A DNA stretch of 64,000 nt from a virus. The stretch covers positions 56,466 through 120,465 of IMG/VR virus record IMGVR_UViG_3300043419_000731; one strand, 5' to 3'. The notes below the pieces were generated by a model. It was not told the origin of the DNA and made no database searches. It saw only the letters and a list, made by a program, of their open reading frames with translations. Every line of letters starts with the position of its first letter. Positions within the stretch are counted from its first letter, which is position 1. This document shows, one piece after another, positions 23,551-38,935 of the stretch. Both the position numbers and the translations under genes were made by a program.

Positions 23551-26433
23551 GTGCCATTTAAAATTTTTGACGGTTCATCGTGGCTTCCATCTAAAAAAAT
23601 TAAAGTCAATACCGAACTTGGTATGCAAGACTATAAAAAGGCATTTATATTTGACGGCACAAACTGGGTTGAAGTTTTAGAAAAACCAAAAAATCTTACT
23701 GTTCCAGAGCTTTCCTTTTCTAGAGGACAAGAGCTTTATGGTGCAGATCAAACTGTAACAGCTACTAACGGAACCTGGGAAGGAACCGTATCATCTTACA
23801 AGTATCAGTGGCAAAAAGGAATATACGCTGGCTCTCAGATAGATTGGTCTGATATCACAGATGCAATAAACAATAGCTTTATTATACCAGGAGATTTAGT
23901 AGGGTATAAATTAAGATGTGCTGTAACTGCAGTAAATAATGCAGGAGATAGCGAAAAGGCATACGGAACAACAATTGGAATCATCCTTCCTGAATTTGTT
24001 CAAACAATAACAGCCTTTGTGCAACAAGATGCAGACGGATATGTAAATGGAAAGATAAGAGTGTTCTGGGATGTTTCAGAAGGTGCAGACGGATATTTAT
24101 TGATTTATCAAGGTCCTGGAATTGCTAGAACAGAAAAGAAAATTATTGGTAAAAGTAATAACCTGTTTGACTGGGATTTTGGTGCAACAAACGTTAATGA
24201 TCTAATAGGAATGACAAGCTTATCGATATACGTTGGCCCATACAATGATACAAGCTCTGCTGCAGCAGCATATAGAGCGGCTAACGGAATTGGTGATAGC
24301 CAAACACCAACATTCTATCAATCTGGAGGAATCAATGACCTTCTTCCAAAAAAACCAATTGTAACCTCTTTAGCAGTTGCAATTACACCGTATGTTTATG
24401 ACACAGCAATTCAAATGAGCTGGTCACTAAGTAATATAACTCAATCATCATTTTCAGCGGAGTATCAGTATTTTAACGATGAAACCCTAGAATATGGATG
24501 GGCACCTTACAGATCTGGAACAACAGAGCAAAGCGTTTACATGCCTATTGGACCAGGATTTAGTTTTGATGGATTAAGAGTTGTAGTTTCGGGAACTTCT
24601 AGAGGATTTGCAGGACCATTCATTGGCGTTTCTAATTCACCAACTTCTGCATATCTTGCACCAGCAATTTATACAAAACCATTCTTAACCCCAAGCACTA
24701 ATGTTCAAGTGGGAGAAGTTATATCTGCTACCCAAGGAGTATGGGATTATAACCCAACATCATATACTTTAGATATATTAAAAAATGGAGTTTCAGTAGC
24801 ATCTGGAACACAAAGCTGTTCATACACAACAGTATTATCAGATGCTAATGCTACATTTACTGTTAAAGCAAGTGCTACAAATCCAGGTGGCACAACAGAG
24901 TCTTACGGAGACTATTCAATACAATGCCTTAACACATCCACCGTCCCCGCAAACGGTGTTGCTCAAATTTATGGAACTGGTAGAGTTGGAACACAAATTA
25001 CAATGAGCACAAGCGGCTGGACAGGAAATCCAACTCCTTCAATAACTACAAGCTTGCAGCGCATGAACTACTCTGGAGGCTATGATGACATGGGAGTTAC
25101 ATCCTATACTGTACAAGAATCAGATCTTTCAGTTGGTTCAAAAGGCGGAACAATCGCTGCAATTTTTAGAGCACGAGCAACAGCTAGCAATATAGCGGGA
25201 TCAACTTCTGCCTATTCAGATTATCTTCAAGTTTCAAGTAATACATTTACAGTTCCAAGCTTCTTAGGTGGAGGAGTTCCACAAGGTGCAAGTAACTATA
25301 CTATTACAAATGGTGGAGCGCTATATAAAACAACAGCTCTAAGCCAAGCGGGTACAGTAGCAGCTCAGTATCCAACAGCAGGAACAACTGCAACTATTGG
25401 TGTAGATATCACAGTTTATACTTATTATTATGAGGCCGCTGCAGTACTTGCTTCTGGTGGGGTAGCTTCTATTTCTGGAAGTGGTCAGGTTGGTTCAACT
25501 ATTACTGCATCTGCTAGCGGATGGTCTGGAAGCCCAACTCCAACCGTAACAACTCAATTACAGCGCATGAATTATGCTGGAGGGTATGATGATATGGGTG
25601 TAACATCATACACCGTACAATCATCTGATCTAAGCGTTGGAACTAAGGGTGGTGCAATTCCACAATACTTCAGAGCAATTTCAAGAGCAACTAACTCAGC
25701 AGGAACTGCAGAAGTTTACTCTGATTATGTACAAGCAAGCGCAGCACCAGTAACTCCATCATTCCCATTCTTCCCTGACTTTGTGGCGCCACCGTCATTC
25801 CCTTACTTCCCAGCATTTAAGGCACCTTCATTCCCATTCTTCCCTGATTTTGTTGCACCGCCTTCATTCCCTTATTTCCCAGAATTTATGAAAGCACCAT
25901 CATTTGTAGCGCCACCTTCATTCCCATTCTTCCCTGACTTTGTTGCTGCGCCTTCATTCCCTTATTTCAAAGTTACAAAATGTATTGAGTCAAATACAAG
26001 ACTATTAACTTTTGATAGAGGATATGTTGCAGCTAGAGACATACAGCTAGGAGACAAGTTAGTTTCAATATCTGCAGAAGATTTCGGAAACGAATCAATG
26101 AAGTGGTTTAACATTAAAGATAATGTTAAGCTTGTAGAAGTTGAAGTTGTTAAATCTGAGATGTCAGTTAAAGATGTGTTGTCATTTAACGGAACAGAAA
26201 AGTACTTCTCTTATGGTCAACCAATATTCATTAAAAAAGACGGGCTTGCAACATGGATAGAGTCAGGCTCAGTTAACATTGGAGATGCATTACTAGAACT
26301 TGATCCCGCCACTGGTGAGATAAATGAAGTTATAGTTGACTCAATACAAGCAGATACAGACAAAGAAGTTTATGACATTAGAACATCAGGCAACCAATGG
26401 TTTATTGCAGAACAATTTATTGTTATAAGTTAA
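23551..26433 (+). CDS. Ig-like repeat virion protein with PASTA-like segment, Pro/Phe repeat and C-terminal Hint domain
   Basis: Duplicated GW.G.PTP...QRMNY.GGYDDMG modules; PSFPFFPDF repeats 25756-25968; Hint from Cys at 25981. Confidence 0.75.
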   Translation: MPFKIFDGSSWLPSKKIKVNTELGMQDYKKAFIFDGTNWVEVLEKPKNLTVPELSFSRGQELYGADQTVTATNGTWEGTVSSYKYQWQKGIYAGSQIDWSDITDAINNSFIIPGDLVGYKLRCAVTAVNNAGDSEKAYGTTIGIILPEFVQTITAFVQQDADGYVNGKIRVFWDVSEGADGYLLIYQGPGIARTEKKIIGKSNNLFDWDFGATNVNDLIGMTSLSIYVGPYNDTSSAAAAYRAANGIGDSQTPTFYQSGGINDLLPKKPIVTSLAVAITPYVYDTAIQMSWSLSNITQSSFSAEYQYFNDETLEYGWAPYRSGTTEQSVYMPIGPGFSFDGLRVVVSGTSRGFAGPFIGVSNSPTSAYLAPAIYTKPFLTPSTNVQVGEVISATQGVWDYNPTSYTLDILKNGVSVASGTQSCSYTTVLSDANATFTVKASATNPGGTTESYGDYSIQCLNTSTVPANGVAQIYGTGRVGTQITMSTSGWTGNPTPSITTSLQRMNYSGGYDDMGVTSYTVQESDLSVGSKGGTIAAIFRARATASNIAGSTSAYSDYLQVSSNTFTVPSFLGGGVPQGASNYTITNGGALYKTTALSQAGTVAAQYPTAGTTATIGVDITVYTYYYEAAAVLASGGVASISGSGQVGSTITASASGWSGSPTPTVTTQLQRMNYAGGYDDMGVTSYTVQSSDLSVGTKGGAIPQYFRAISRATNSAGTAEVYSDYVQASAAPVTPSFPFFPDFVAPPSFPYFPAFKAPSFPFFPDFVAPPSFPYFPEFMKAPSFVAPPSFPFFPDFVAAPSFPYFKVTKCIESNTRLLTFDRGYVAARDIQLGDKLVSISAEDFGNESMKWFNIKDNVKLVEVEVVKSEMSVKDVLSFNGTEKYFSYGQPIFIKKDGLATWIESGSVNIGDALLELDPATGEINEVIVDSIQADTDKEVYDIRTSGNQWFIAEQFIVIS

Positions 26434-26479
26434 TAAATAATCCTGTATAATATATGAATAGGCAGTAAGAGGAGGAAAA

Positions 26480-27031
26480 ATGGCTACCAGCTTTCCAACA
26501 GATATAGACAACCTCTCGAATCCATCTGCAAATGATGAGCTTACGGGACACGCAGCACAACATGCAAATGCCAACGATGCAATTGAAGCAATTCAATCAA
26601 AGCTTGGTGTGGACGGGTCAACTGATGAGAATTCAATTGACTATAAGGTAACAAACCTTGAAGCACTTGTAACAAATGTTACTAATAACTCAAACGCAAC
26701 TTCAGAACTATTGGGTCTTGAGGGAAATAATGACTTAACAGTTTATGGCATTGAAAACCCAACAAATATAGATTCATTTGCAAAAAACACATGGAGAACA
26801 GTTAGATACAATCTACAAGTAACCAAAAACAACGAAGTGTATACATCAGAGATACTAGCTTCACATGATGGAACTGACATAATGATCTCAGAAACAAACA
26901 TTATGTCTAATACAAATAACAATCTATTTACTTATACATTTGAAGAAAATTCAGGTATAATTAGTTTAAGAATCACCCCTACTTCTGGCGAAATTTCTGT
27001 AAGATTTATACGCACAGCAGTAAAGGCATAA
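26480..27031 (+). CDS. virion structural protein
   Basis: MATSFPTDIDNLSNP...H...HANANDAIEAIQ; C-terminal beta domain resembling that of the next gene. Confidence 0.6.
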   Translation: MATSFPTDIDNLSNPSANDELTGHAAQHANANDAIEAIQSKLGVDGSTDENSIDYKVTNLEALVTNVTNNSNATSELLGLEGNNDLTVYGIENPTNIDSFAKNTWRTVRYNLQVTKNNEVYTSEILASHDGTDIMISETNIMSNTNNNLFTYTFEENSGIISLRITPTSGEISVRFIRTAVKA

Positions 27032-27058
27032 AAAAAGCAACAAGAGGAGTCATAAAAT

Positions 27059-28723
27059 ATGGCAACAGTAGACAAAAACTTTAGAATTAAAAATGGCCTG
27101 GTCGTTGAAGGAGCTACAGCAACGGTCAATGGCAATGATATACTTACAAAAGATGCTGGTGATTCTTATATCATTAACCTTATTGGTGGAACAGCAACAT
27201 CTGCAAATACACCAAGCACAGTTGTAAAGCGTGATGCAAATGGTAATTTCGAGGCAGGCACACTAGCACTAACTGGAATTACAGTTCAAGATGCTGGTAG
27301 TATCTTTGAAGATTCTGGCCTTGTCATTCAGTCAAATAGCGGATATTCAATTGACATTCTTGGTAACCAGGATGTAACTATTTCATCTAGCAATGGAGAC
27401 ATTAACCTTAATCCAGATGGATCTGCTAAGGTCAATGGACAGGTAATTGCAACAAGAATTTATGCAGACGATGCCGCTTCAACAGCACAAGCAAATGCAG
27501 CTTCAGATGCTACAACAAAAGCTAACGCAGCACAGCTAGCAGCCGAAACAACAGCAGCACTAGATGCTACAAGCAAGGCTAATCAGGCTCTTTCAGATGC
27601 ACAGGCGTATGCACAAAATGCAGCAAATGCAGCACAGTCAAATGCAGAGTTCTTTGCAACATCTGCAGATTCAACACTATACGGAACAATTTCAGCTGAC
27701 ATCATAACTGCAATTGCTAATGAAGAAACAGCTCGTAATTCTGCTATTGATTCAGCAATAATGACAGAAGAGTCAGCTCGTAATTCTGCAATCAATACAG
27801 CAATTACAACAGAAGTTTCAGATAGAAACTCTGCAATTGCAACTGCAAAAAATCAAGCGATTGCAGATGCTAATTCTTACACAGATGGCAAGGTAGCAGA
27901 GCTTGTAGATTCAGCACCAGAACTTCTTGACACACTTAATGAGTTGGCTGCAGCTATTGCTGATAACCCAAATTATGCATCAGATGTTGCTAACCTAGTT
28001 GCAACAAAAGCTGACACAACATATGTAGACTCAGAAATTTCTGATCTAGATGCAGCAGCTCAGGGCTATGCCAATACAGCCCAGTCAAATGCTGAGGCAA
28101 CTGCATCAGCAGATGCAACAACTAAGGCTAACGCAGCTCAAGCAGCAGCTGAGGCAACTGCATCAGCAGATGCAACAACTAAGGCTAACGCAGCTCAAGC
28201 AGCAGCTGAGGCAACTGCATCAGCAGATGCAACAACTAAGGCTAACGCAGCATATGACAATGCTGTAGCCGCAGCAGCAACTGATGCTACAGATAAGGCT
28301 AATACAGCCCAGTCAAATGCTGAAGCAACTGCACAAACTGCGCTCAATTCAGTACTTGCGGGAGATACAAACTTCACAGAGGTTTCAATCGACTGGATGG
28401 TAAAGCATGTTGGATCATACGCATACCAGGCTGGAACTACCGAAACCGTAGCCTATAGCTGGAACCATAATGCAGGAGCTTCAGCTAAGTTCTTAGTTAG
28501 AATTAAGAATGGAATTCACTCACAGGTGTCTGAGGTTCTTTTGACTAGAGATGATGCAAATAATATTGCTATCACAGAATACGGCATGGTTACTACAAAC
28601 GGCATACTTGGAGACATTACAGCCGCTATGAATCAGAATAATATAGATCTTAAGGTAACCCCAGCACATAACACTGGAACAGAGATCTTTGTTTCTGGTA
28701 CACTTCTAAGATACGCAGATTAA
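27059..28723 (+). CDS. Ala-rich coiled-coil fibre protein
   Basis: MATVDKNF; DATTKANAAQ repeats; LDTLNELAA. Confidence 0.7.
   Translation: MATVDKNFRIKNGLVVEGATATVNGNDILTKDAGDSYIINLIGGTATSANTPSTVVKRDANGNFEAGTLALTGITVQDAGSIFEDSGLVIQSNSGYSIDILGNQDVTISSSNGDINLNPDGSAKVNGQVIATRIYADDAASTAQANAASDATTKANAAQLAAETTAALDATSKANQALSDAQAYAQNAANAAQSNAEFFATSADSTLYGTISADIITAIANEETARNSAIDSAIMTEESARNSAINTAITTEVSDRNSAIATAKNQAIADANSYTDGKVAELVDSAPELLDTLNELAAAIADNPNYASDVANLVATKADTTYVDSEISDLDAAAQGYANTAQSNAEATASADATTKANAAQAAAEATASADATTKANAAQAAAEATASADATTKANAAYDNAVAAAATDATDKANTAQSNAEATAQTALNSVLAGDTNFTEVSIDWMVKHVGSYAYQAGTTETVAYSWNHNAGASAKFLVRIKNGIHSQVSEVLLTRDDANNIAITEYGMVTTNGILGDITAAMNQNNIDLKVTPAHNTGTEIFVSGTLLRYAD
28091..28251 (+). 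repeat. perfect 57-bp tandem repeat x2.8 (19 aa)
   Basis: Units start at 28091, 28148, 28205. Confidence 0.9.
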
Positions 28724-28738
28724 TAATTAAATAAAAGG

Positions 28739-28766
28739 TTTGGGGTCCTTTCAAAACCCCACCAAA
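28739..28766 (+). terminator. imperfect hairpin after fibre gene
   Basis: TTTGGGGT...ACCCCACCAAA. Confidence 0.4.
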
Positions 28767-28791
28767 TAACATTAGGGGATAGTGAACTTAA

Positions 28792-29163
28792 ATGGCAACA
28801 GTAGATAAAAATTTTAGAGTAAAGAATGGTCTAAACGTAGCAGGTACTGCAAACTTTGATTCGGCAGTAAATGTAAATAACTTAGTCTTAAATTCGGCCC
28901 CCCTAGCTTATGACTCATCAACTGGTAGATTAAAAATCCAGATTGACGGGGCATGGAAAGAGGTTGCATTCTTAACAGATGCAGCTGAAGATCTAGGAGC
29001 ATTAACCTTCATGGATATCGGCTTGGCTATCGATTATGATGGGCAGCCAGTATATACAGTTTTTGCAAATGGAGTAAACACAACAGCTACAAAATTTGCA
29101 GATGGTGGAATTTACTCCACAGATGTTTACAGCATGACTTTTGACTCTGGAACAATTAATTAA
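28792..29163 (+). CDS. small virion protein sharing N-terminus with 27059-28723
   Basis: MATVDKNFRVKNGL vs MATVDKNFRIKNGL. Confidence 0.65.
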   Translation: MATVDKNFRVKNGLNVAGTANFDSAVNVNNLVLNSAPLAYDSSTGRLKIQIDGAWKEVAFLTDAAEDLGALTFMDIGLAIDYDGQPVYTVFANGVNTTATKFADGGIYSTDVYSMTFDSGTIN

Positions 29164-29224
29164 TTGTTTTAGAGCCTTTGTGATGCTATAATTACCAAAT
29201 AAGTCTAAATAAGGGGTGGCATAA

Positions 29225-31609
29225 ATGTCAACAGTAAGAATTCAAGTAAGAAGAGGCACAGCTTCACAGTGGACCTCAGTAAATCCAATTTTGGCAGCAG
29301 GAGAAATGGGTGTCGAGTCAGACACAAACCTATTTAAATTCGGTAACGGAACTTCTACATGGACTGCCCTTGCATATGCAAATAATTCAGACGTAGCAAT
29401 CGCTGAAATATCACAGGATGCAATTAATACCGCTCTCTCAATGGGCTCAGGTTTAACAAAGTCATACAATGATGGCACAAATACAATTCAGATCACAGTT
29501 GATTCAGATGTTGTTGCCCTAAAGTCATATGTAGACTCAGCAATTTCAAATGTCGAGGCATCAGTAACAGGCCTTGCAAATACAGTTGATTCAGACTATA
29601 TTCCAGTATCTGACCGTGGTGTCGCTGGTGGAGTTGCATCACTCGATAACAGTGGTTTAATTCCAAACTCACAGATCGATGACACAAATTGGGCAACAAA
29701 GCTACACGTAGCCTCAGTTTCTTCTGGGCTTCAGATTAAGGGTTCAGTACGTGTAACATCTACAGATAACTTTGCTGCAACACTAACAGATGGAACAACA
29801 GATGCATCAGGCGGAAATGGTGTAGGACAATACTTAACAGCATCAGCTAATGGAGCACTTGTAATTGATGGTGTAACACTAAATGCAGGAGACAGAGTTC
29901 TTCTTAAGGATCAGTCTGACGGCAAGCAAAATGGTATTTACACAGTAACAAATACAGGTGGATCTTCAGCAGCAGCAGTTTTAACTCGTGCTACAGATGC
30001 AGATAACAGCGTAGACGGAGAAGTCAGAGAAGGCCTCTTCGCATTTACTCAAGAAGGAACTGCAAATGCTCGTGACGGATACGTTCTTCTAGCAGCAGCA
30101 TCAAGATCAGGACAGATTTTCCAGCTTGGCACAGACTCACTAACATTTAGCCAATTTACTGGAGCAATCCCAGTAAATATTTCTACAGGCCTACAGAAGA
30201 CTGGCGATACAATTTCAGTAAATACATCTGAAATTGCAACAGTTAACTATGTAGACGGAATTAATAATGCTCTAACTCAAATAACAACATCACATGGAGA
30301 ACAAATTGATGCTGTTGAGATTAAGAATAATGAGCAGGATTCAGCAATAGCTATTAATACAGCAGATATTGCAACAAATACAGCAAGTATTAGCTCAATC
30401 GTAACTGTAAATAATACACAGAATACCAGACTAACATCACTAGAAGCAGCTGATGTAACTCTTGGAGGCTTGCTAGACGATGCTAATACAGCAATTGCAG
30501 ACCTAGAGACAGAGCTCAGAGGAGACCTTGCTCCAAAGAACAATGCTGAATTTACAGGTACTCTTGACTTGCCATCAACAACAACAATAGGCACAGTCCT
30601 TGGAACAGAGATTGCACATCTATCAGGTGTGACATCTGGAATCCAGACACAGATTGATTCAAAAGCATCAAATACAGATCTTTCAGATCACGCAGCCGAC
30701 ACATTATCGGTTCACGGTATTTCAGATACATCAGAACTTGAGACACAGACTGGCGCACAAGCAAAAGCAGATAACGGCAGAGATGCAGCAAAAGCTTATG
30801 CAGATAGCCTTGCATCAAACTATGACGCAGCTGGAGCAGCAACATCAGCAGTTGGCACACACAACAATGCCACAACATCTGTTCATGGAATTGCTGATAC
30901 ATCAAAGCTTGTAACAACAGATGCACAGTCCATAACATTAGATGGAGCATTAACAGTTGAGGGCAACCTTACTGTAAACGGTACAACATTTAACGCATCA
31001 GCAACATCTATTACAATTGAAGATAATCTAGTACAACTTGCACATCAAAATGCAGGTAATACAGTAGATCTTGGAATCGTAGTCGCTTACAATGATGGAT
31101 CTGCAAAGCATGCAGGTTTTGTAAGAGACGTATCTGATAATGAGTGGAAGCTCTTTAAGGGCGTAACAGATGAACCAGCAACAACTGTTAACTTCAGCCA
31201 GGGGTCACTAGATAATCTTGAGCTAAATAACTTAGTTGCAGCAGGCGTAGTCTTTACAGATGGAACACAGACAAAGCAGGGTGTACCTTCTATAACTCCT
31301 ATCGTAGAAAAAACAGCAGGCTTCAATATTTCAGATGCTGATTATAGAGATCAGATGCTTGAGGTCAGCCACACAGGTGGAAGCGCTGTAACAATAACAG
31401 TAACTGCAGATGGAACAAACGGTATCACATACCCAGTTGGAACATCTATCAGCATAACAAGAACTAATACAGGATCTGTAACAGTAGCAGGTTCTGGAAC
31501 AACAGTTAATGCTACACCAGGATTAACTTTAAGAGCACGATGGTCATCAGCGACATTATTCAAGAGAGCAGCTAACACCTGGATCTTGATGGGCGATTTG
31601 ACAGCGTAA
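29225..31609 (+). CDS. long fibre protein with Mtd-N-like N-terminus
   Basis: RRGTASQW...GEMGVESDT; GDRVLLKDQ...QNGIY domain; ITIEDN module. Confidence 0.7.
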   Translation: MSTVRIQVRRGTASQWTSVNPILAAGEMGVESDTNLFKFGNGTSTWTALAYANNSDVAIAEISQDAINTALSMGSGLTKSYNDGTNTIQITVDSDVVALKSYVDSAISNVEASVTGLANTVDSDYIPVSDRGVAGGVASLDNSGLIPNSQIDDTNWATKLHVASVSSGLQIKGSVRVTSTDNFAATLTDGTTDASGGNGVGQYLTASANGALVIDGVTLNAGDRVLLKDQSDGKQNGIYTVTNTGGSSAAAVLTRATDADNSVDGEVREGLFAFTQEGTANARDGYVLLAAASRSGQIFQLGTDSLTFSQFTGAIPVNISTGLQKTGDTISVNTSEIATVNYVDGINNALTQITTSHGEQIDAVEIKNNEQDSAIAINTADIATNTASISSIVTVNNTQNTRLTSLEAADVTLGGLLDDANTAIADLETELRGDLAPKNNAEFTGTLDLPSTTTIGTVLGTEIAHLSGVTSGIQTQIDSKASNTDLSDHAADTLSVHGISDTSELETQTGAQAKADNGRDAAKAYADSLASNYDAAGAATSAVGTHNNATTSVHGIADTSKLVTTDAQSITLDGALTVEGNLTVNGTTFNASATSITIEDNLVQLAHQNAGNTVDLGIVVAYNDGSAKHAGFVRDVSDNEWKLFKGVTDEPATTVNFSQGSLDNLELNNLVAAGVVFTDGTQTKQGVPSITPIVEKTAGFNISDADYRDQMLEVSHTGGSAVTITVTADGTNGITYPVGTSISITRTNTGSVTVAGSGTTVNATPGLTLRARWSSATLFKRAANTWILMGDLTA

Positions 31610-31638
31610 TAATTCAAAGAAAGAAATTGGAGATATAA

Positions 31639-32946
31639 ATGTCAAACAAAAAAGTAGGAATTAAATCTTCCGCCCAAGACAACTTCTTAGAGCCAAGTGC
31701 TGTAACGTCTTTATCAGCAACTGCTGTAAATGGCGGAAATAATGGAAATGGTACTGTTAACTTAACATGGTCACTTCCAGCCGCATCACCGCCAGCAACA
31801 CTTTACACAGTAACATCAAATCCAGCTACAACTACACAAACATCAGCTAGCACATCAATAACATTTAATGGGCTTACTGGAGGAACATCTTATACGTTTA
31901 CAGTAGTAGCTTCAAATGCAGCAGGAAATAGCTTGCCAACTAGCACCACATCTGGTGTTACACCAACTACACTTCCTAATGCGCCCTCAGCTCCAATAGC
32001 TTCTTCGCCAAATGCTAACCAGGACGTTATATCCTGGTCAGCACCATCTTCTAATGGTGGATCAACAATTACAGGATATAGATTAAAGTCCTCAGATGGT
32101 CCAACATATGATTATGATGCTAATACAACATCAGCAACAATTAGCGAATCAGCTGGAACAGCACAGACATATCAGGTTTTGGCAAAGAACTCGAATGGAG
32201 ATGGTCCGTACTCAGTATCAAGTAATACTATTACGACAACTGCTCCATTCTTCCCATTCTTCCCGCCATACTTCCCTTACTTCCCACCTTACTTCCCATA
32301 CTTCCCACCTTACTTCCCATTCTTCCCGTTCTTCCCACCGTTCTTCCCACCGTTCTTCCCGTTCTTCCCACCGTTCTTCCCACCGTTCTTCCCGTTCTTC
32401 CCACCGTTCTTCCCACCGTTCTTCCCATTCTTCCCACCGTTCTTCCCACCATACTTTGCAGCACCATCGTTCCCTTACTTTAAGGTAACAAAGTGTATTG
32501 CAGGAGATTCTGAAGTACTTACAACATCAGGATACAAGCCAGCAAAGGAATTAAATGTAGGAGATAAACTTCTTACAGTTGATCCAAAAGACTTCAATAA
32601 TGGTGAAATAACATCAGAGCTAAGTTTGCCAGACAAGGTATTCCTCTCTGAAACATCAATCGCCACTATCGAGTTGAGCCAAAAGGCACTGCTAAGCTTC
32701 AATGACTCACTGATTAAATTCTCAGACGCACAACCAATATTTGTGAAAGACGGAGAGTTTATTAAGTACAAGACAACTGGAGAAGTAGCTGTAGGAGATA
32801 TCCTTGCAGAAGTAAATCCAGAAACATGCCAGGTAACATACACAACAGTAGAAAAGATTACTGAGCATGAAGCAGGAGATGTCTACGATATCCGATGCTT
32901 ACCGAACCAGTGGTTCATCGTAGGAAATTATATAGTAATCTCCTAA
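31639..32946 (+). CDS. two fibronectin-III-like domains, 71-residue P/F/Y tract and C-terminal Hint domain
   Basis: LTGGTSYTFTVVASNAAG, WSAPSSNGGS; P/F/Y only at 32245-32457; Hint from Cys at 32494. Confidence 0.8.
   Translation: MSNKKVGIKSSAQDNFLEPSAVTSLSATAVNGGNNGNGTVNLTWSLPAASPPATLYTVTSNPATTTQTSASTSITFNGLTGGTSYTFTVVASNAAGNSLPTSTTSGVTPTTLPNAPSAPIASSPNANQDVISWSAPSSNGGSTITGYRLKSSDGPTYDYDANTTSATISESAGTAQTYQVLAKNSNGDGPYSVSSNTITTTAPFFPFFPPYFPYFPPYFPYFPPYFPFFPFFPPFFPPFFPFFPPFFPPFFPFFPPFFPPFFPFFPPFFPPYFAAPSFPYFKVTKCIAGDSEVLTTSGYKPAKELNVGDKLLTVDPKDFNNGEITSELSLPDKVFLSETSIATIELSQKALLSFNDSLIKFSDAQPIFVKDGEFIKYKTTGEVAVGDILAEVNPETCQVTYTTVEKITEHEAGDVYDIRCLPNQWFIVGNYIVIS
32329..32451 (+). repeat. 33-bp tandem repeat x3.7 encoding FFPPFFPPFFP
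   Basis: Units start at 32329, 32362, 32395, 32428. Confidence 0.85.
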
Positions 32947-33052: not shown

Positions 33053-33805
33053 ATGAGTATTCAAGATACATGGTTTGATAAAGATAGATCTGAGACTTCT
33101 TCAAATAGAAGACCAGACAAAACATTTAATGGCATCACTGTTAAGAATGAGGCCCTAGGCTTAGATGTATACAAAAATGTATTTACATCTAGTCAGATTC
33201 AGAAATACATTAATGCGCTAGAAAATAATTTAAAGCCAGACACAGAGTTCTTCTGGAATGAAGCAAGAGTTACAAACTCTGAAACACCAATTAAAAAAGC
33301 AAGAGATTGCGTAGACTTTAAGATGAACTACGCCTCACTTGGCGGAGCACAGAATCAAAAGAATGCTGAGCTTTGGGAAACATATGATGAGATCTACAAA
33401 GCCCTAAAATCATGCGTGGACGACTATTGCAGGTACTGGGGAATCAATGTTACATACTATGAGGTTTTTAACTTTGTAAAGTATGAAGGCGAAGGCAAAG
33501 AGTTTAAGATTCATGCTGATGATGGACCAGCATACAAAGCAGCCGTATCTGCAGTTATTTATTTAAACAATGACTATGAAGGCGGAGAGATAGCTTTCCC
33601 AAGAATGGATAATTTGGTAATTAAGCCAGACCTTGGGGATATTGCAATATTCCCATCAAACTATATTTACGAGCATGCTTCACTTCCCATTAGATCTGGA
33701 ACAAAGTATTGCGTAGTTATTATGATGGACTTAAATGATTTAGCTCATCAAAATAATAGAATGCAAGGAAGCCCTTCTGCATTCGGAAAAGAATCAGGAT
33801 ATTAA
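33053..33805 (+). CDS. 2OG-Fe(II) oxygenase, P4H-like (1 of 7)
   Basis: HAD...YLNNDYEGGE...FPS...HAS...GTKY. Confidence 0.87.
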   Translation: MSIQDTWFDKDRSETSSNRRPDKTFNGITVKNEALGLDVYKNVFTSSQIQKYINALENNLKPDTEFFWNEARVTNSETPIKKARDCVDFKMNYASLGGAQNQKNAELWETYDEIYKALKSCVDDYCRYWGINVTYYEVFNFVKYEGEGKEFKIHADDGPAYKAAVSAVIYLNNDYEGGEIAFPRMDNLVIKPDLGDIAIFPSNYIYEHASLPIRSGTKYCVVIMMDLNDLAHQNNRMQGSPSAFGKESGY

Positions 33806-33806
33806 T

Positions 33807-34502
33807 ATGCAAGCAGAAACTAAAGAAATTGATTTTAAAGCTGAATGGGCAGAGCCAATCAAGCAGACCTGGACAGAAAAGATTGATCTAGGTTCTGGCA
33901 TTTGGCTATACAAGAATGTTATCCCAACAGATATCCCAGCTAGACTGGAAGAACTATTAGCAGACCCATCTAACCCGTATAACTGGATGGAAGCTTTTGT
34001 GGGGTACCAACAGAGTATGCCAGAGTATAGAGACTGTGTTGACTTTAAGTATAAGAAGACAGATATTAATGACCCAAGCGAAGCTGGACAAAAGCTAGTA
34101 AAGATTTGGGAGGAGTGCTATGAGCCACAAAGACAGGCTGTAAGAGATTACTCTAGAATGTATAATATTAATCAGCTTAGATACTGGGAAGCATTCAACT
34201 TTATTAGATATACACCAGGAAATCACTTTATGGAGCACCACGATCATGGATACTCATATAACTGCACAGTTTCACTTGTAGGATATTTTAATGATGACTA
34301 CGAAGGTGGAGAGCTATACTTTAGACTTCAGAACTTAAATCTAAAGCCAGAAGCTGGAGATCTTTTTATCTTCCCTTCAACATATATGTATCCACACCAA
34401 GCCAAAAAGGTGCACTCAGGAACAAAGTACTCAATTGTAACAATGCTTGATTACAGCGAGAAGTTCCATGATCCAAAGTTTTTCCAAGAGACTGGAAACT
34501 AA
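33807..34502 (+). CDS. 2OG-Fe(II) oxygenase, P4H-like (2 of 7)
   Basis: HHD...NDDYEGGE...FPS...HQA...GTKY. Confidence 0.87.
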   Translation: MQAETKEIDFKAEWAEPIKQTWTEKIDLGSGIWLYKNVIPTDIPARLEELLADPSNPYNWMEAFVGYQQSMPEYRDCVDFKYKKTDINDPSEAGQKLVKIWEECYEPQRQAVRDYSRMYNINQLRYWEAFNFIRYTPGNHFMEHHDHGYSYNCTVSLVGYFNDDYEGGELYFRLQNLNLKPEAGDLFIFPSTYMYPHQAKKVHSGTKYSIVTMLDYSEKFHDPKFFQETGN

Positions 34503-35218
34503 TGATTAACCTTACAGCCTATCAGATGGGCACAGAAACTGCATCGGTTGAGCCTTTGCAAGTAACTAGAGACTGGATGGATGCAACACCAGAAAAGCAT
34601 GCATACCATTGTTTTCCAGTAACTCAAGCCAATACTGTAGGCTGGACAATCTCTATGCCAGTAGATATTAAATTTATTTGGGATGGAGTAAATGATACAA
34701 GCGGGAATCATATAGAGATACTAGAGGGCAATAGCTTTGTTTATACAGGAAGAGGTCAGTCTTCTGTAAGCTTTAATACAAACCTATTGTTTAGATCAGA
34801 AAGCAATGTTAGCTTATTAACAATGACACCACCTAACTATTTTAATCCAGATTATCAAGTTATTGGTTCTGTTATATCTACATCATTTTTTAGAAACCCT
34901 CTACCGCTTGCAATTAAAGCATTGACTCCAAATAAAGAAATTTTAATACCTGCAGGAACACCAATTGCAACAATATTGCCAATATCTTTATCTGAACTCA
35001 AAGACTCTGTTGTAGAGGTTAAAAAGTTTCCTCAAGAAGATATGTATGAGTGGAATGAAAAGAATAGAGCCTATGGAGATGCAGCTCAAGTCTTATCCAC
35101 AAAGGGCGAGTGGACTGATTGGTATAGAGATGCTGTTGATCAAGACGGCAACAAGATTGGTGAACACGAAGCTAAATCACTTAAGCTTAAAACAGTATAC
35201 GTAGATACAGAGGTATAA
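34502..35218 (+). CDS. DUF6065-like protein
   Basis: HAYHCFPVTQANTVGW; GTPIATILP. Confidence 0.6.
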   Translation: MINLTAYQMGTETASVEPLQVTRDWMDATPEKHAYHCFPVTQANTVGWTISMPVDIKFIWDGVNDTSGNHIEILEGNSFVYTGRGQSSVSFNTNLLFRSESNVSLLTMTPPNYFNPDYQVIGSVISTSFFRNPLPLAIKALTPNKEILIPAGTPIATILPISLSELKDSVVEVKKFPQEDMYEWNEKNRAYGDAAQVLSTKGEWTDWYRDAVDQDGNKIGEHEAKSLKLKTVYVDTEV

Positions 35219-35950
35219 ATGTCTAACACCATTAAGTTTGTCAGTAATAGACCATGGCTAACAAAAGATAGCTCTTCAAAGCCAGAACCTATCATAAAGT
35301 CTATTCCAGATTGGTATAGAAAAGCTGACAGATTTGCTAAAAAACCAGATGGAGAATATTGGCAAGATCCTACAATTGGGGGAAAGATTCCTACATGGAA
35401 AGCTTGTCCAGCAATATTTGACATTATGGGAACAGGATATACGCTAAGAACTCCGTGTGATATTGAATTTATAAAGGGTGACTTCGGATCAATTGATTTT
35501 AAAATCTCTGATCCAAAGTATAAAGATTTTTGTACCAAAAGAGAACCTATGCCACAATTTCATCAGCCAGAGGGATACTATGCAATTCACTTTGCTTGGT
35601 TCCCAGATTGGGCTATAGAGACTCCAGAAGGATACAGTGTTCTTTACTCACAGCCTTTCAATAGATTTGAGTTGCCATTCCTAACTACATCTGGAATCAT
35701 TGATAATGATAAGGTAAACTTGCCAGGGTCAATGCCTTTCTTTTTGCAAAAAGGTTTTAGTGGAATTCTTCCAGCAGGAACTCCTTACGCACAGATGCTT
35801 CCATTTAAAAGAGAAGACTGGGAGCATGAGATTGTTATAGAAAAAGCTTCAAAGCTACAAAGTAAAAATATGGAAAACTCAGCAAAATATAGAAAGCCAG
35901 ACGGCGGAATATACAAAAACGAAGTATGGTCTAAGAGAACATACTCATGA
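35219..35950 (+). CDS. DUF6065-related protein (dUTPase-like beta fold suspected)
   Basis: PDWYRK, KACPAIFD...GY, SGIIDND, GTPYAQMLPFKRE. Confidence 0.55.
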   Translation: MSNTIKFVSNRPWLTKDSSSKPEPIIKSIPDWYRKADRFAKKPDGEYWQDPTIGGKIPTWKACPAIFDIMGTGYTLRTPCDIEFIKGDFGSIDFKISDPKYKDFCTKREPMPQFHQPEGYYAIHFAWFPDWAIETPEGYSVLYSQPFNRFELPFLTTSGIIDNDKVNLPGSMPFFLQKGFSGILPAGTPYAQMLPFKREDWEHEIVIEKASKLQSKNMENSAKYRKPDGGIYKNEVWSKRTYS

Positions 35951-35968
35951 GGATGGTATAATTAAATT

Positions 35969-36643
35969 ATGGAAGATAAAACATTAGCTAACGGTCCTGC
36001 AAACTGGGACAATCGTACTTCAATAACTCCTCCAGGATTCTTTGGTAATACTCCAGAGCATATCCAGGCAAGAGAAAATTTTATGACTGAAGAAGAAAGA
36101 ACCTTTTTATTAGAAGCAGCAAAGTCTATTACGGAGTGGGATAGAACAGAAACACACTACAATGATGATGGAGTAATTATCTATGACTCAACATATTGGG
36201 ATAACCGTGTTGCTTCAAGACCGATCCTGGACTCTATAAATCCAGAGATATCAAATGTTATCGAAAAGCTCGTAGCTAGACTTAAAGTTGAAGTTGATAA
36301 TCACTTTAAGGTAGACGCTATGCCAACAAGCCCAGCTATTGTTAGATGGATGGAAGGATATAGACAAGAGCCACATGCAGACAAGCAATTGCAGAATGGC
36401 GAGCCTAATGATTTCCCATGGTATGACCTAGCTGGTCTATTTTACTTAAATGATGATTATGAGGGTGGAGAGCTTTACTTCATGCATCACGATATTGAAT
36501 TTAAGCCAAAGCCAGGAGCAGCATACTTCTTCCCAGGAGATGTTGGGTATAGCCATGGTGTAAGAGAAATAAAGAGCGGTATTAGATATGTTATTCCGTT
36601 CTTCTGGACTATTATGAAGCATACAGGAGATAAGCAGCCTTGA
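35969..36643 (+). CDS. 2OG-Fe(II) oxygenase, P4H-like (3 of 7), leaderless
   Basis: HAD...YLNDDYEGGE...HGV...GIRY. Confidence 0.87.
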   Translation: MEDKTLANGPANWDNRTSITPPGFFGNTPEHIQARENFMTEEERTFLLEAAKSITEWDRTETHYNDDGVIIYDSTYWDNRVASRPILDSINPEISNVIEKLVARLKVEVDNHFKVDAMPTSPAIVRWMEGYRQEPHADKQLQNGEPNDFPWYDLAGLFYLNDDYEGGELYFMHHDIEFKPKPGAAYFFPGDVGYSHGVREIKSGIRYVIPFFWTIMKHTGDKQP

Positions 36644-37380
36644 GTAAACAATGCACATGTGGAAGATCTCAGTCTTATCCTTTTTGCGATAACACTCACG
36701 CTCAGCCATCACATCCAGTAATTCAAACAATCAATCCTCATGCATTTAGCTACTTTAATAAAAAGGATTCTGCGGAGAATGTTGTTGTTCAAGTTCCCAA
36801 GTTTATCTCTAAGGGTATGTCAAAAGACCTAATTGATGTTTTTGAAAAGGATGAGCTGTGGCAGGATGTTGGATTCCACAAGGCAAGTAATTTATTTCAT
36901 ATAGATTTTGCAGGCAATAAAGAACTTGCTGATCTGTGGGAAGAGCTTGTTTCAACTATTAAAAGGGCTACAGAAATAGTATTTAAAGACAAGGTTGTAA
37001 ACACTGGCTTATATATTCAAAAATGGCCAGAAGGATCGTATGGAATAAAACATAATGATATGTACAATTTTGATGGAAGCATCGGCAATTTAACATCCAG
37101 AATAGCAACAACCTTATTCTTGCACTCACCTTTTACTGGAGGGAATTTAGAGTTCCCAGATCATGAGCTAGCTATTGAGCCTAAGATGGGGTCACTGTAT
37201 TTGTTCAAAGGTGGACCAGACAACGAACATCAAATTGCAGAAATAACATCTGGATTAAGATATACAGTTATTGCATTTTGGGATTTTGAAAGCTCAACCT
37301 ATACCGATGAAGAATTACAGGGTATGGAAGATAGCAAGAAGAAGTGGGAAAATTATATGAAGACAGGTGAGGGGCTATGA
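36640..37380 (+). CDS. CDGSH iron-sulfur motif fused to 2OG-Fe(II) oxygenase (4 of 7)
   Basis: CTCGRSQSYPFCDNTH; HND...GGNLEF...HQI...GLRY; TTG start. Confidence 0.78.
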   Translation: MSKQCTCGRSQSYPFCDNTHAQPSHPVIQTINPHAFSYFNKKDSAENVVVQVPKFISKGMSKDLIDVFEKDELWQDVGFHKASNLFHIDFAGNKELADLWEELVSTIKRATEIVFKDKVVNTGLYIQKWPEGSYGIKHNDMYNFDGSIGNLTSRIATTLFLHSPFTGGNLEFPDHELAIEPKMGSLYLFKGGPDNEHQIAEITSGLRYTVIAFWDFESSTYTDEELQGMEDSKKKWENYMKTGEGL

Positions 37381-38174
37381 CAAAAGACTTAGAGTTTATT
37401 ACGATATATCCTAGAATAAATGTTTATAGAAATACATTTAAAGATGTAGAAAAATTTTTAGAGCAAGCAAAGTCAGAAGAGGGATGGATTCAGTGGTATA
37501 CCTTTGGACAAATGCTGCCTCTCCAAGAAGCGCCTCTTGATTTTGACCATTTCCCAACAAAAGAAGAGTATATTAAGCTAAGAGATTCACAGCCATCTTC
37601 TCAAAAGAATTTAACAGATGAGATAGGTGAAATATTCTACGACGTAACAAAGCATTGGTTAGACATGAATCCAGATATGGGATTAATTAATTACCATAAG
37701 GGATCAGCATCAATTAATATCTATAAGAATGAAGCTGGGTTATCAGAAAACTACTCTATGAATTATCATACAGATTTTGTTGTACCTCTTAGAGATGCAC
37801 CAGGAACCAAGTTTGGCATTACAACAACATTTTATTTGAATGACGATTATGAAGATGGAGAGATCTGTTTTAAGATTGGAGATCATTTTATATCTCACAA
37901 GCCTAAAGCAGGAGATGTTATTGTATTCCCATCAAGAGACCCATACTACCATGCAGTAAGAAAGTCTTCTGGTAACAATAGATATATGATCAGATCATTC
38001 TGGGAGTACAACTTCCCTGGTACCGATGAGTGGCTTGCTGGACAAGCAGAGCACGGTGAAGAAAAATGGGCTGAGATGGAAAAGATCAGGTTTAAAAAAG
38101 AGATAGAAGGCACACAGCAGCAAGCTGAAGATGTTCACGAATTCTTTGGGAGAGACAACGGTAAATACTTATGA
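37377..38174 (+). CDS. 2OG-Fe(II) oxygenase, P4H-like (5 of 7)
   Basis: HTD...YLNDDYEDGE...FPS...HAV...NRY. Confidence 0.85.
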   Translation: MTKDLEFITIYPRINVYRNTFKDVEKFLEQAKSEEGWIQWYTFGQMLPLQEAPLDFDHFPTKEEYIKLRDSQPSSQKNLTDEIGEIFYDVTKHWLDMNPDMGLINYHKGSASINIYKNEAGLSENYSMNYHTDFVVPLRDAPGTKFGITTTFYLNDDYEDGEICFKIGDHFISHKPKAGDVIVFPSRDPYYHAVRKSSGNNRYMIRSFWEYNFPGTDEWLAGQAEHGEEKWAEMEKIRFKKEIEGTQQQAEDVHEFFGRDNGKYL

Positions 38175-38935
38175 AAAATGGAATGATTGATGTAATAGAT
38201 CCTGATAAGTTTATTATTTTACAGGATGAGGTTGTACCAGAAGAAAAAGCTGGGGTGCTAGGCGTTTATACAAATAAGATAGTTGAGATCCCAAACTTTA
38301 TTGACCCAGAAGTTGTTCCAAAGATGATTAACTTTTTTGAAAATTGCGACGTAGACTGGGGAGATATTGCATTTTATGGATCTTCAGGCAAAGGTATTTT
38401 AACTGATGCCACCACAATGGAAAAGTTTGGATTGCCAGATGGATTCTTTGATAAACTAAAAGACAAGTATCAGGAAGCAGTTACAACTGTATTTGGCAGA
38501 GAGGTAAGAGCAAATACTTCTCATGCACAGAAATGGGATGTGGGAGGATTTGCATCACCACACTCAGACAATTCAAATAATGAAGGAAAACCAAATGCAT
38601 TTGAGATTAATAAATACGTAGGCATTTTATATCTAAATGATGATTATGAAGGTGGAAATCTTTATTTCTGTGACAAAGATAAAGAGATGGAGCCATATCT
38701 ATCATTTAAGCCAAATGCATACTCTTACTATGTTTTCCCAGGAGGATATGAAAATATTCATGGAGTTGCTGAGATCACAGCTGGAACGAGATATACAATG
38801 GTTTCATTCTGGGACTTTGCAGATTTAGAATATGACGAAGAGACTCTAGAGCGCTGGAAAGAAGAAGAGCGCCAGGTTAGAGTTGAGCAGGCCGCACAGA
38901 AAGAAGAGTGGGAAAAGGGTAACAAGTATGCCTAA
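38171..38935 (+). CDS. 2OG-Fe(II) oxygenase, P4H-like (6 of 7)
   Basis: HSD...YLNDDYEGG...HGV...GTRY. Confidence 0.87.
   Translation: MKNGMIDVIDPDKFIILQDEVVPEEKAGVLGVYTNKIVEIPNFIDPEVVPKMINFFENCDVDWGDIAFYGSSGKGILTDATTMEKFGLPDGFFDKLKDKYQEAVTTVFGREVRANTSHAQKWDVGGFASPHSDNSNNEGKPNAFEINKYVGILYLNDDYEGGNLYFCDKDKEMEPYLSFKPNAYSYYVFPGGYENIHGVAEITAGTRYTMVSFWDFADLEYDEETLERWKEEERQVRVEQAAQKEEWEKGNKYA

What the first reader, a model, noticed from the sequence alone, without database searches (positions are those of the whole stretch)
23551..32946. Two different virion proteins end in the same cassette: PF-repeat, KVTK, 150-aa terminal Hint domain with no C-extein
Seen: 23551-26433 and 31639-32946 have unrelated N-terminal parts but share the junction APSFPYFKVTK/CI. 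In both, the Hint starts at that Cys (25981, 32494), is exactly 150 aa, keeps the block-F VYDI Asp, has Gln where block B normally has His (SYGQPIF, SDAQPIF), and ends IVIS-stop without His-Asn. Known: Hedgehog and bacterial intein-like Hints form a Cys1 thioester that is resolved by a nucleophile (cholesterol for Hedgehog). Inference: a portable C-terminal cleavage/ligation tag that could attach these proteins to a small molecule, lipid or other virion protein. The His-to-Gln change could mean atypical chemistry or a non-catalytic assembly domain.
Basis: partly seen in the sequence, partly recalled or inferred. Interest (0 to 1): 0.8.

Follow-up and report, generated by a model that had tools for sequence, protein, structure and literature searches.

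The report
Self-cutting Hint caps on phage fibres
Two otherwise unrelated surface-type proteins of an uncultured actinobacterial phage both end in a proline/aromatic stalk capped by a genuine intein/Hedgehog-type (Hint) domain that has kept its cutting cysteine but lost everything needed for splicing. It most likely cuts itself off, and it belongs to a large phage family for which I found no description.

Summary
ORFs 23551-26433 (960 aa) and 31639-32946 (435 aa) share only their last 163 residues (42% identity, E 3e-37). Both have the junction AAPSFPYFKVTK|CI, a 150-aa domain starting at Cys, SxxQ in place of TxxH, VYDI, and an IVIS-stop.

The domain is a real Hint fold. The AF2 model has pLDDT 94 and aligns to mini-inteins at Z 18.3 and to Hedgehog at Z 17.4. 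A family profile hits a BIL domain at E 1e-10.

It belongs to a large family (176 clusters at 50% identity; more than 130 IMG/VR loci) found almost only on uncultured viral contigs. In every clade examined a Pro-aromatic repeat sits directly in front of the Hint. Position 1 is Cys or Ser in 85 of 86 representatives. Gln is the majority state at the block-B His position, so it is not special to this phage.

What is special here is the ending. Most relatives end in His-Asn-Lys-stop. This clade has no His-Asn and no C-extein, and instead carries Lys just before the Cys.

The best reading is N-terminal self-cleavage only, as in Hedgehog or BIL domains. No cleavage has been shown. Ligation to a partner, or a non-catalytic role, remain open.

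This scan has already noted the same family on at least six other genomes.

The parts
23551..26433 (+). Long Hint-capped protein (960 aa, GTG start): Ig-like/PASTA-like repeat modules, Pro-aromatic stalk, terminal Hint
   Evidence: ORF and translation. Orthologues of 932-976 aa at 84-97% identity in the cap. Three of them begin with the same N-terminal peptide, which supports the GTG start.
25759..25980 (+). Pro/Phe/Tyr-rich stalk of the long protein, ending in the junction AAPSFPYFKVTK
   Evidence: Translation. Tandem 33-69 nt repeats at 25759-25904.
25981..26430 (+). Terminal Hint domain 1 (150 aa): Cys811, Ser887..Gln890, Asp942, ends IVIS
   Evidence: Coordinates. AF2 pLDDT 94.3. Z 18.3 to the Mtu RecA mini-intein, with model Cys aligned to intein Cys1 and the last residue aligned to intein Asn440. 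Profile E 1.2e-10 to BIL structure 2lwy.
31639..32946 (+). Short Hint-capped protein (435 aa): two FN3 domains, 71-residue Pro/Phe/Tyr tract, terminal Hint
   Evidence: Translation. Pfam fn3 E 3.6e-14. Orthologues P0007 and L005.
32245..32493 (+). Pro-aromatic stalk of the short protein plus the shared junction AAPSFPYFKVTK (32458-32493)
   Evidence: Translation. Tandem 12/21/33 nt repeats at 32248-32450.
32494..32943 (+). Terminal Hint domain 2 (150 aa): Cys286, Ser362..Gln365, Asp417, ends IVIS
   Evidence: Coordinates. 42% identical to domain 1. Sub-threshold Pfam Hint, Intein_splicing and PT-HINT hits.
33053..39524 (+). Neighbouring array, possibly functionally linked: seven 2OG-Fe(II) oxygenase paralogues (PF13640), one DUF6065 gene (34502-35218) and one gene with no Pfam hit (35219-35950)
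   Evidence: Pfam results. An oxygenase homologue lies within 10 kb of the Hint gene in 103 of 136 related loci, but the whole block is syntenic.

Best explanation
Each gene encodes a surface or appendage protein of the phage's fibre-gene block. It is built from a variable N-terminal adhesion part, a stiff hydrophobic proline/aromatic stalk, a conserved Lys-rich junction and a C-terminal Hint domain. The Hint domain carries out only the first step of protein splicing. Cys1 attacks the Lys-Cys peptide bond (K810|C811 and K285|C286), turning it into a thioester, and this is then resolved, by default through hydrolysis. The 150-residue cap comes off and the mature protein ends in ...PSFPYFKVTK. 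The cap would act as a removable folding or solubility aid for the sticky stalk. This parallels the self-cleaving Peptidase_S74 chaperone that ends the collagen-like fibre of the same phage. What is shown: the fold, the family, conservation of the nucleophile and the block-B Ser, selection on the junction, and the absence of any C-terminal splice apparatus. What is inferred: that cleavage happens, when it happens, and what it is for.
For: The fold is Hint. The AF2 model has pLDDT 94.3. Foldseek's top hits are BIL2, inteins, BIL 2lwy and Hedgehog. VIA-align gives Z 18.3 at rmsd 2.0 over 131 aa, with the model Cys on intein Cys1 and Hedgehog Cys258, and the last residue on the intein's terminal Asn. 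Sequence homology is supported by family-profile hits to BIL 2lwy at E 1.2e-10 and to mini-inteins at about 1e-8, and the exhaustive search also pulls in true mini-inteins. The catalytic positions are under selection. Position 1 is Cys 79 / Ser 6 among 86 covered 50%-identity representatives, block-B Ser/Thr is 132/134, and the His position is always a polar H-bonding residue (Q, H or E). The junction has 14 identical residues with 9 synonymous differences. Only N-cleavage is possible, because I-S aligns to H-N and the protein stops there. Natural inteins without the block-B His exist, and bulky -1 residues can compensate for its loss (PMC6333167); here -1 is Lys. The mature form is plausible on its own, since many sister phages encode the same FN3-FN3-stalk protein ending a few residues after the stalk with no cap (56 of 80 loci sampled). 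A functional parallel sits in the same phage: the collagen-like fibre at 39532-40749 ends in Peptidase_S74.
Against: There is no biochemical or proteomic evidence of cleavage for any family member. The block-B His, the most conserved catalytic residue of Hint domains, is Gln. The block-F Asp is not conserved family-wide. In sister phages the position after the stalk can instead hold a small Cys-rich module, so the end module could be a functional tip rather than a disposable cap. Many relatives have Pro at -1; from general knowledge of engineered inteins, not checked in a paper here, Pro at -1 is unfavourable for the acyl shift. Hint domains are not known to act as folding chaperones.
Confidence: 0.55

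Rival explanations
1. Ligation device. The Cys1 thioester is not hydrolysed but captured by an amine or another nucleophile. The stalk's C-terminus then becomes covalently joined to a Lys of a neighbouring chain or virion protein, to its own junction Lys (forming a macrolactam), or to a small molecule. This resembles Hedgehog cholesterol transfer or BIL2-mediated isopeptide formation.
For: BIL2 of the Tetrahymena BUBL locus, among the best structural matches, is reported to form a Lys epsilon-amine isopeptide bond (PMC8616854). Lys shows a complementary pattern in the family. It lies at +1 to +3 after His-Asn in 131 of 136 HN-ending domains. In the window's clade it lies within 8 residues before Cys1 in 24 of 24 junctions, against 4 of 87 in HN clades. 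The junction peptide is identical in both paralogues under purifying selection, as expected if one partner recognises both.
Against: No acceptor has been identified. There is no extra adduct-binding region after the Hint fold. The Lys pattern rests on essentially one evolutionary event, since the clade has weak support (SH-like 0.39). Other HN-less clades, such as the one ending YNAYP, show no Lys near the junction. Capless homologues work without any ligation chemistry.
Confidence: 0.2
2. Non-catalytic end domain. The Hint fold has been kept as a stable distal knob that stays attached and serves binding or assembly.
For: Gln replaces the block-B His, there is no His-Asn, and the block-F position is variable. 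Sister phages put a different small module (a Cys-rich knot) at the same place, as is typical for exchangeable fibre tips.
Against: The nucleophile at position 1 is Cys or Ser in 85 of 86 representatives at 21-46% overall identity to the window domain. The Cys-to-Ser swap is what a catalytic nucleophile tolerates, not a structural residue. The domain boundary coincides exactly with that Cys. The block-B Ser/Thr is kept in 132 of 134.
Confidence: 0.2
3. Decaying selfish intein or a remnant of a polymorphic-toxin PT-HINT module whose downstream part was lost.
For: Weak Pfam hits to Intein_splicing and PT-HINT. ESM Atlas neighbours include PT-HINT clusters at scores of 0.75-0.83.
Against: The domain is not inserted in a conserved host protein. 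It has no endonuclease and no C-extein or toxin. It is conserved as a terminal domain with the same stalk partner in 176 clusters and more than 130 viral loci. Two anciently diverged paralogues are maintained per genome in many phages.
Confidence: 0.03

Closest known systems
Type A bacterial intein-like (BIL) domains, e.g. Clostridium thermocellum BIL (PDB 2lwy); described by Amitai 2003 and Dassa 2004 as summarised in PMC7765530
   Same: This is the best sequence-profile match (E 1.2e-10), with Z 16.5. It has Cys1 and sits in variable, non-conserved surface proteins rather than housekeeping genes. It lacks a +1 Cys/Ser/Thr nucleophile and auto-cleaves rather than splicing obligatorily. The window's more distant relatives keep the type-A hallmark, a C-terminal His-Asn.
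   Different: The window's clade has lost His-Asn and has no C-extein at all. Block-B His is Gln. The host proteins are phage fibre-block proteins, and the domain is always preceded by a Pro-aromatic repeat.
Hedgehog/Hog C-terminal autoprocessing domain (PDB 1at0, 6tyy)
   Same: The architecture matches: a cargo protein followed by a terminal Hint that can only form the Cys1 thioester and release the cargo. The fold match is Z 17.4, with Cys on Cys258.
   Different: There is no sterol-recognition region after the Hint module. TxxH is SxxQ. No evidence exists for a lipid or other adduct. The source is viral rather than eukaryotic.
BIL2 of the Tetrahymena BUBL1 locus (PDB 6y75, 6tmm)
   Same: It is Foldseek's top structural hit. 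It is reported to pass its thioester to a Lys epsilon-amine (PMC8616854), which echoes the conserved Lys next to the splice junctions of this family.
   Different: BIL2 sits between two ubiquitin-like domains and keeps its His and terminal Asn. Only 16-18% identity.
Peptidase_S74 intramolecular chaperone domain of phage tailspikes and fibres (PF13884)
   Same: It is a C-terminal domain of phage fibres that helps assembly and then cuts itself off. One is present in this same phage at 39532-40749. It is the closest functional analogy.
   Different: The fold and chemistry are unrelated (the Ser-Lys dyad mechanism is from general knowledge). There is no sequence match to the Hint caps.
Mini-inteins (e.g. 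Mtu RecA, Ssp/Npu DnaB)
   Same: These give the highest structural Z (18.0-18.3, rmsd 2.0). The block F/G sequence is very similar (VYDIRT..NFIA.G.IVHN against VYDIRT..QWFIAEQFIVIS).
   Different: Inteins interrupt conserved proteins, need His-Asn plus a +1 nucleophile, and ligate their flanks. None of this applies here.

Membership tests
Hint superfamily (fold level) | Horseshoe-like all-beta Hint fold | tested here: met
   AF2 pLDDT 94.3. Z 18.3 at rmsd 2.0 over 131 aa to the Mtu RecA intein, Z 17.4 to Hedgehog and Z 16.5 to BIL. 58 Foldseek hits at E<=1e-3; the rows listed are all inteins, BIL domains or Hedgehog.
Hint superfamily (fold level) | Nucleophile (Cys/Ser) as the first residue of the domain | tested here: met
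   Cys811 and Cys286 align to intein Cys1 and Hedgehog Cys258. Family-wide counts are Cys 79 and Ser 6 of 86.
Hint superfamily (fold level) | Block B Thr-x-x-His | tested here: not met
   The motif is Ser-x-x-Gln in both copies. The Ser/Thr is kept (132/134), but the His position is Q 92 / H 32 / E 11 across the family.
Intein | C-terminal His-Asn followed by a Cys/Ser/Thr +1 residue of a C-extein | tested here: not met
   Ile-Ser aligns to His-Asn and is followed by the stop codon.
Intein | In-frame insertion in a conserved host protein whose flanks are ligated | tested here: not met
   The domain is terminal, and its N-terminal partners are variable (FN3, PASTA, Ig-like).
Type A BIL domain | Conserved C-terminal His-Asn without a +1 nucleophile | tested here: not met
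   Absent in the window's clade. Present in 136 of 233 unique relatives, where +1 is Lys in 101. A FastTree tree places the window's clade inside the HN-bearing groups, but with weak support.
Type A BIL domain | Located in variable regions of non-conserved secreted or surface proteins | tested here: met
   The domain ends diverse fibre-block proteins.
Hedgehog/Hog domain | Sterol- or adduct-recognition region following the Hint module | tested here: not met
   The structural alignment runs to the last residue (162) of the model, and nothing follows.
Hedgehog/Hog domain | Autocatalytic release of the N-terminal cargo through a Cys1 thioester | not testable with these tools
   This needs expression with a Cys1Ala control, thiol or hydroxylamine cleavage assays, and mass spectrometry.
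PT-HINT (polymorphic toxin pre-toxin Hint) | A toxin domain downstream of the Hint | tested here: not met
   No residues follow the domain. The PT-HINT Pfam hit is below its cut-off (12.7-16.2 bits against 27.7).
Peptidase_S74 intramolecular chaperone | Match to PF13884 | tested here: not met
   Neither protein hits PF13884, whereas the neighbouring fibre at 39532-40749 does (E 2.1e-14). The relation is a functional analogy only.

The most novel reading that the evidence does not exclude
The family uses lysine as the acyl acceptor of a Hint thioester. In the His-Asn-Lys-stop clades the single C-extein Lys is spliced onto, or isopeptide-linked to, the stalk end. In the window's clade, where Lys has moved in front of Cys1 and His-Asn is lost, the thioester is captured by a junction Lys of the same chain or a neighbouring one. 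This would give a C-terminal macrolactam or covalent inter-subunit staples that lock the Pro-aromatic stalk or fix it to the virion. It would be an enzyme-free protein-ligation step in phage assembly, possibly acting on a stalk that the adjacent prolyl-hydroxylase-like enzymes have modified.
Probability: 0.12. Interest if true: 0.85.

Novelty: new variant of a known kind. Interest (0 to 1): 0.65.

Why it matters
Hint domains are known as inteins, as Hedgehog processing domains and as BIL or pre-toxin modules of bacteria. A large, unannotated family that ends phage surface proteins would add a Hedgehog-like 'cargo plus terminal Hint' layout to viruses of bacteria.

The family offers natural variants of interest to intein chemists. 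These include Gln or Glu in place of the block-B His, Pro at -1, a one-lysine C-extein, and a clade with no C-terminal junction at all.

It also gives phage biologists two testable leads. One is how very hydrophobic Pro-aromatic stalks are made and matured. The other is a candidate substrate for the many 2OG-Fe(II) oxygenases of aquatic phages, whose targets are unknown.

Compact N-cleaving Hint domains that tolerate Lys at -1 could also be useful as self-removing tags.

Tried and rejected
Pfam, PHROGs and NCBIfam give no above-threshold family for the cap. Single-sequence phmmer against PDB gave only E 0.045.

AF2 with a two-sequence alignment failed (pLDDT 43). A 113-sequence alignment was needed.

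No cultured phage holds the cassette. Megablast and tblastn with the window cap, and tblastn with an HNK-type cap, found nothing in 50,697 phage records.

The alignment of the whole family was too diverse for the search for related loci, so clade alignments were used instead.

The scan of prokaryote genomes gave one close hit on a 7.6-kb contig binned in a MAG. The other hits, at about 25% identity, were not examined. It therefore gave no host clue.

Recent gene conversion as the cause of the identical junction was rejected, because 9 of the 14 codons differ synonymously.

A link between the N-terminus of the long protein and the Mtd_N-type N-termini of neighbouring fibres was not found.

Monophyly of the IVIS clade has weak support and the backbone of the tree is unresolved. 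'Loss of His-Asn is derived' therefore rests mainly on the outgroup and the majority state.

The oxygenase association cannot be separated from conserved synteny.

Six literature searches found no paper on phage structural proteins ending in Hint domains. One further query was rejected for its syntax and not rerun.

Model coordinates are not retrievable, so active-site geometry (Cys1, Ser, Gln, the invariant Asn) could not be measured.


Full report
**The observation**

The window holds ORF 23551-26433 (960 aa, GTG start) and ORF 31639-32946 (435 aa). BLASTP between them gives one significant segment, the last 162-163 residues (42% identity, E 3e-37). Nothing else is significant. Both have the junction AAPSFPYFKVTK|CI, a domain of exactly 150 residues starting at Cys811 or Cys286, the motifs SYGQP or SDAQP, VYDI, and the ending IVIS-stop. 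The 14-residue junction is encoded with 9 synonymous differences and no replacement. It is therefore held by selection on the peptide, not by recent gene conversion. The Pro/Phe/Tyr tracts in front are real and are encoded by tandem DNA repeats.

**Genome and neighbourhood**

The window is the second half of a 120,465-bp IMG/VR virus record that CheckV rates complete. GC content is about 39%. The window carries a portal gene, a prohead protease, a major capsid protein 55-60% identical to those of large Streptomyces siphophages, a 2735-aa ORF where a tape-measure gene would be expected (by size and position only), and a minor tail protein. A WhiB gene lies elsewhere in the genome. Taken together this looks like an uncultured phage of low-GC, probably aquatic, actinobacteria; the host is inferred.

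The two genes sit in a block of fibre-like genes. The ORFs at 21707-23536 and 29225-31609 have Mtd_N-type N-termini and many tail-fibre PHROG hits. The block is followed by seven 2OG-Fe(II) oxygenase paralogues, one DUF6065 gene and one gene with no Pfam hit (33053-39524). After these comes a collagen-like fibre that ends in the self-cleaving Peptidase_S74 chaperone (39532-40749). 'Virion protein' is thus an inference from context and from the FN3, Ig-like and PASTA-like modules.

**The end domain is a Hint domain**

Curated libraries miss it. Pfam Hint, Intein_splicing and PT-HINT all score below their cut-offs, and PHROGs and NCBIfam give nothing.

An exhaustive profile search found 176 clusters at 50% identity (58 at E<=1e-10). 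Nearly all have the domain at the very C-terminus, and a few true mini-inteins appear at the tail of the list. A profile of 113 members hits the C. thermocellum BIL domain 2lwy at E 1.2e-10 and a series of mini-inteins at 1e-8 to 1e-5.

With that alignment AlphaFold gives pLDDT 94.3; with two sequences it had failed. Foldseek's top matches are BIL2 of Tetrahymena, inteins, 2lwy and Hedgehog.

VIA-align gives Z 18.3 at rmsd 2.0 over 131 residues to the Mtu RecA mini-intein and Z 17.4 to Hedgehog 1at0. The model Cys lies on intein Cys1 and Hedgehog Cys258, and the last residue lies on the intein's terminal Asn.

**The family**

Among 50%-identity representatives, position 1 is Cys in 79 and Ser in 6 of the 86 that cover it. 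The block-B Thr position is Ser or Thr in 132 of 134. The block-B His position is Gln 92, His 32, Glu 11. An Asn seven residues upstream (the SFN motif) is present in 131 of 134. The block-F Asp of VYDI is conserved only near the window. The Gln is therefore the family norm, not a quirk of this phage.

Endings differ by clade. Of 233 unique domains, 136 end in His-Asn followed by a very short C-extein, which is a single Lys in 87. Forty end like the window ([VI][IV][SA]-stop, aligned on His-Asn). The rest have other endings (YNAYP..., THDS... with Ser1). A FastTree tree rooted on mini-inteins shows the window's clade as one group inside the His-Asn-bearing groups, but support is weak. Because the outgroup and most clades have His-Asn, its loss here is most simply derived.

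**The stalk partner**

In every clade, and in more than 130 IMG/VR loci, the Hint is directly preceded by a Pro-aromatic repeat: FFPP, FGFTP, GFFAPP, HFPP or PFFPPVFC. The N-terminal parts vary, with fn3 in 26 and PASTA in 16 of 113 members.

Many phages carry two such genes, a long one of about 850-1000 aa and a short FN3 one of about 430 aa, as in the window. The family is virtually confined to uncultured viral contigs. No cultured phage matched and there was one close hit in prokaryote genome bins. ESM Atlas neighbours are viral clusters labelled only FN3 or hypothetical.

**Two further results**

First, lysine shows a complementary pattern. In His-Asn clades Lys lies at +1 to +3 in 131 of 136 domains, and the canonical Cys/Ser/Thr is almost never at +1. 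In the window's clade, which lacks any C-extein, all 24 distinct junctions have Lys within eight residues before Cys1, 22 of them as an [FY]K dipeptide. The figures for His-Asn clades are 4 of 87 and 0 of 87. This is essentially one evolutionary event, and other His-Asn-less clades lack it, so it is a lead rather than proof.

Second, following a lead from an earlier scan note, I searched for capless forms. The FN3-FN3-stalk protein is very common (more than 445 viral stretches). In a sample of 80 loci drawn with a capless query, 56 genes stop a few residues after the stalk or after a 25-40-residue Cys-rich tail. Eighteen carry the Hint, one has a frameshifted Hint and six run off the contig. 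The stalk is the constant part and the end module is exchangeable.

**Mechanism**

With Cys1 and the block-B Ser kept, and with no His-Asn and no C-extein, the only Hint reaction left is the N-S acyl shift at Lys|Cys, followed by resolution of the thioester. I consider self-cleavage with release of the cap the most likely outcome (0.55). The cap would serve as a removable aid for a very hydrophobic stalk, by analogy with the Peptidase_S74 cap of the neighbouring fibre.

The literature shows that a few natural inteins work without the block-B His, and that bulky -1 residues can compensate for it (PMC6333167). Here -1 is Lys. The existence of capless homologues shows that a stalk-ended protein is viable.

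Capture of the thioester by an amine (ligation or cross-linking) is a real alternative (0.2). BIL2, one of the best structural matches, makes Lys isopeptides (PMC8616854), and the Lys pattern would fit this.

A non-catalytic knob (0.2) is favoured by the missing His and by the exchangeable Cys-rich ends. It is hard to reconcile with a Cys/Ser-only first residue at 21-46% identity to the window domain. A decaying intein or toxin module is very unlikely.

**The oxygenase array**

A homologue of the window's 2OG-Fe(II) oxygenases lies within 10 kb in 103 of 136 related loci. The whole fibre block is syntenic in these phages, however, so the link to the Pro-rich stalk is suggestive only.

**Comparison with known systems and novelty**

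The domain works most like Hedgehog/Hog (cargo plus a terminal, N-cleaving Hint). It is closest in sequence to type A BIL domains.

It is not an intein, because there is no host-protein insertion, no His-Asn and no +1 nucleophile. It is not a Hog domain, because there is no adduct region and no TxxH motif. The window's clade fails the type A BIL hallmark (His-Asn) that its relatives keep.

I found no paper on Hint-ended phage structural proteins in six searches of the held library. I rate it a new variant of a known kind.

The same family has already been noted by this scan on at least six other genomes, with similar readings. Those notes are unchecked AI notes and were used only as leads.

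**Limits**

No cleavage has been shown for any member. Host and environment are inferred.

Noticed in passing
window 39532-40749 (+): A collagen-like fibre protein ends in the Peptidase_S74 'chaperone of endosialidase' self-cleaving domain (E 2.1e-14). The same phage would therefore use two unrelated kinds of C-terminal self-removing cap, if the Hint caps do cleave.
   Followed up: partly
window 33053-39524 (+): Nine tightly packed genes: seven 2OG-FeII_Oxy_3 paralogues (one with an N-terminal CDGSH-like iron-binding motif, 36640-37380), one DUF6065 gene (34502-35218) and one gene with no Pfam hit (35219-35950). Homologues lie within 10 kb of Hint-capped genes in 103 of 136 related loci, but the block is syntenic.
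   Followed up: partly
IMG/VR loci L006-L079 and proteins P0037-P0120: Most relatives end in His-Asn-Lys-stop, so the C-extein is a single lysine. Lys lies at +1 to +3 in 131 of 136 His-Asn domains. Many have Pro at -1 (junction IPWFGPP|CVEE).
   Followed up: partly
loci L150-L229 (e.g. L150 6001-6699; L163 645-1583): The same FN3-FN3-stalk protein occurs without a Hint. It ends either a few residues after the stalk (GGFGAYT, SGAMAFF) or in a 25-40-residue Cys-rich tail (e.g. ...CWQACPSCCGSCGC). L179 has a Hint in another reading frame just downstream, which may be a frameshift or an assembly error.
   Followed up: partly
proteins P0132, P0133, P0142, P0151, P0152, P0154: A sub-clade uses Ser instead of Cys at position 1, has S/T-x-T-H-Y/R in block B, and ends in His-Asp or Phe-Asp plus a few residues.
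   Followed up: no
window 21707-23536 and 29225-31609 (+): Two fibre proteins have Mtd_N (major tropism determinant N-terminal) domains. Homologues are present in a large share of the related loci.
   Followed up: no
window 28091-28251 (+), inside ORF 27059-28723: A perfect 57-nt tandem repeat (2.8 copies, 100% matches) lies inside a longer 114-nt-period array in a tail-fibre-like gene that encodes an Ala/Thr/Gln-rich segment.
   Followed up: no
own genome G000:C1:38415-38588 (outside the window): A WhiB-family gene scores above the Pfam cut-off. Together with the Streptomyces-phage-like capsid protein and the PASTA modules in the family, this points to an actinobacterial host.
   Followed up: partly
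both Hint domains: Asn880 (26188-26190) and Asn355 (32701-32703): An Asn in an F-N motif seven residues before the block-B Ser is present in 131 of 134 family representatives. In the one BIL alignment printed the corresponding position is not Asn. It could be the residue that compensates for the missing block-B His.
   Followed up: no
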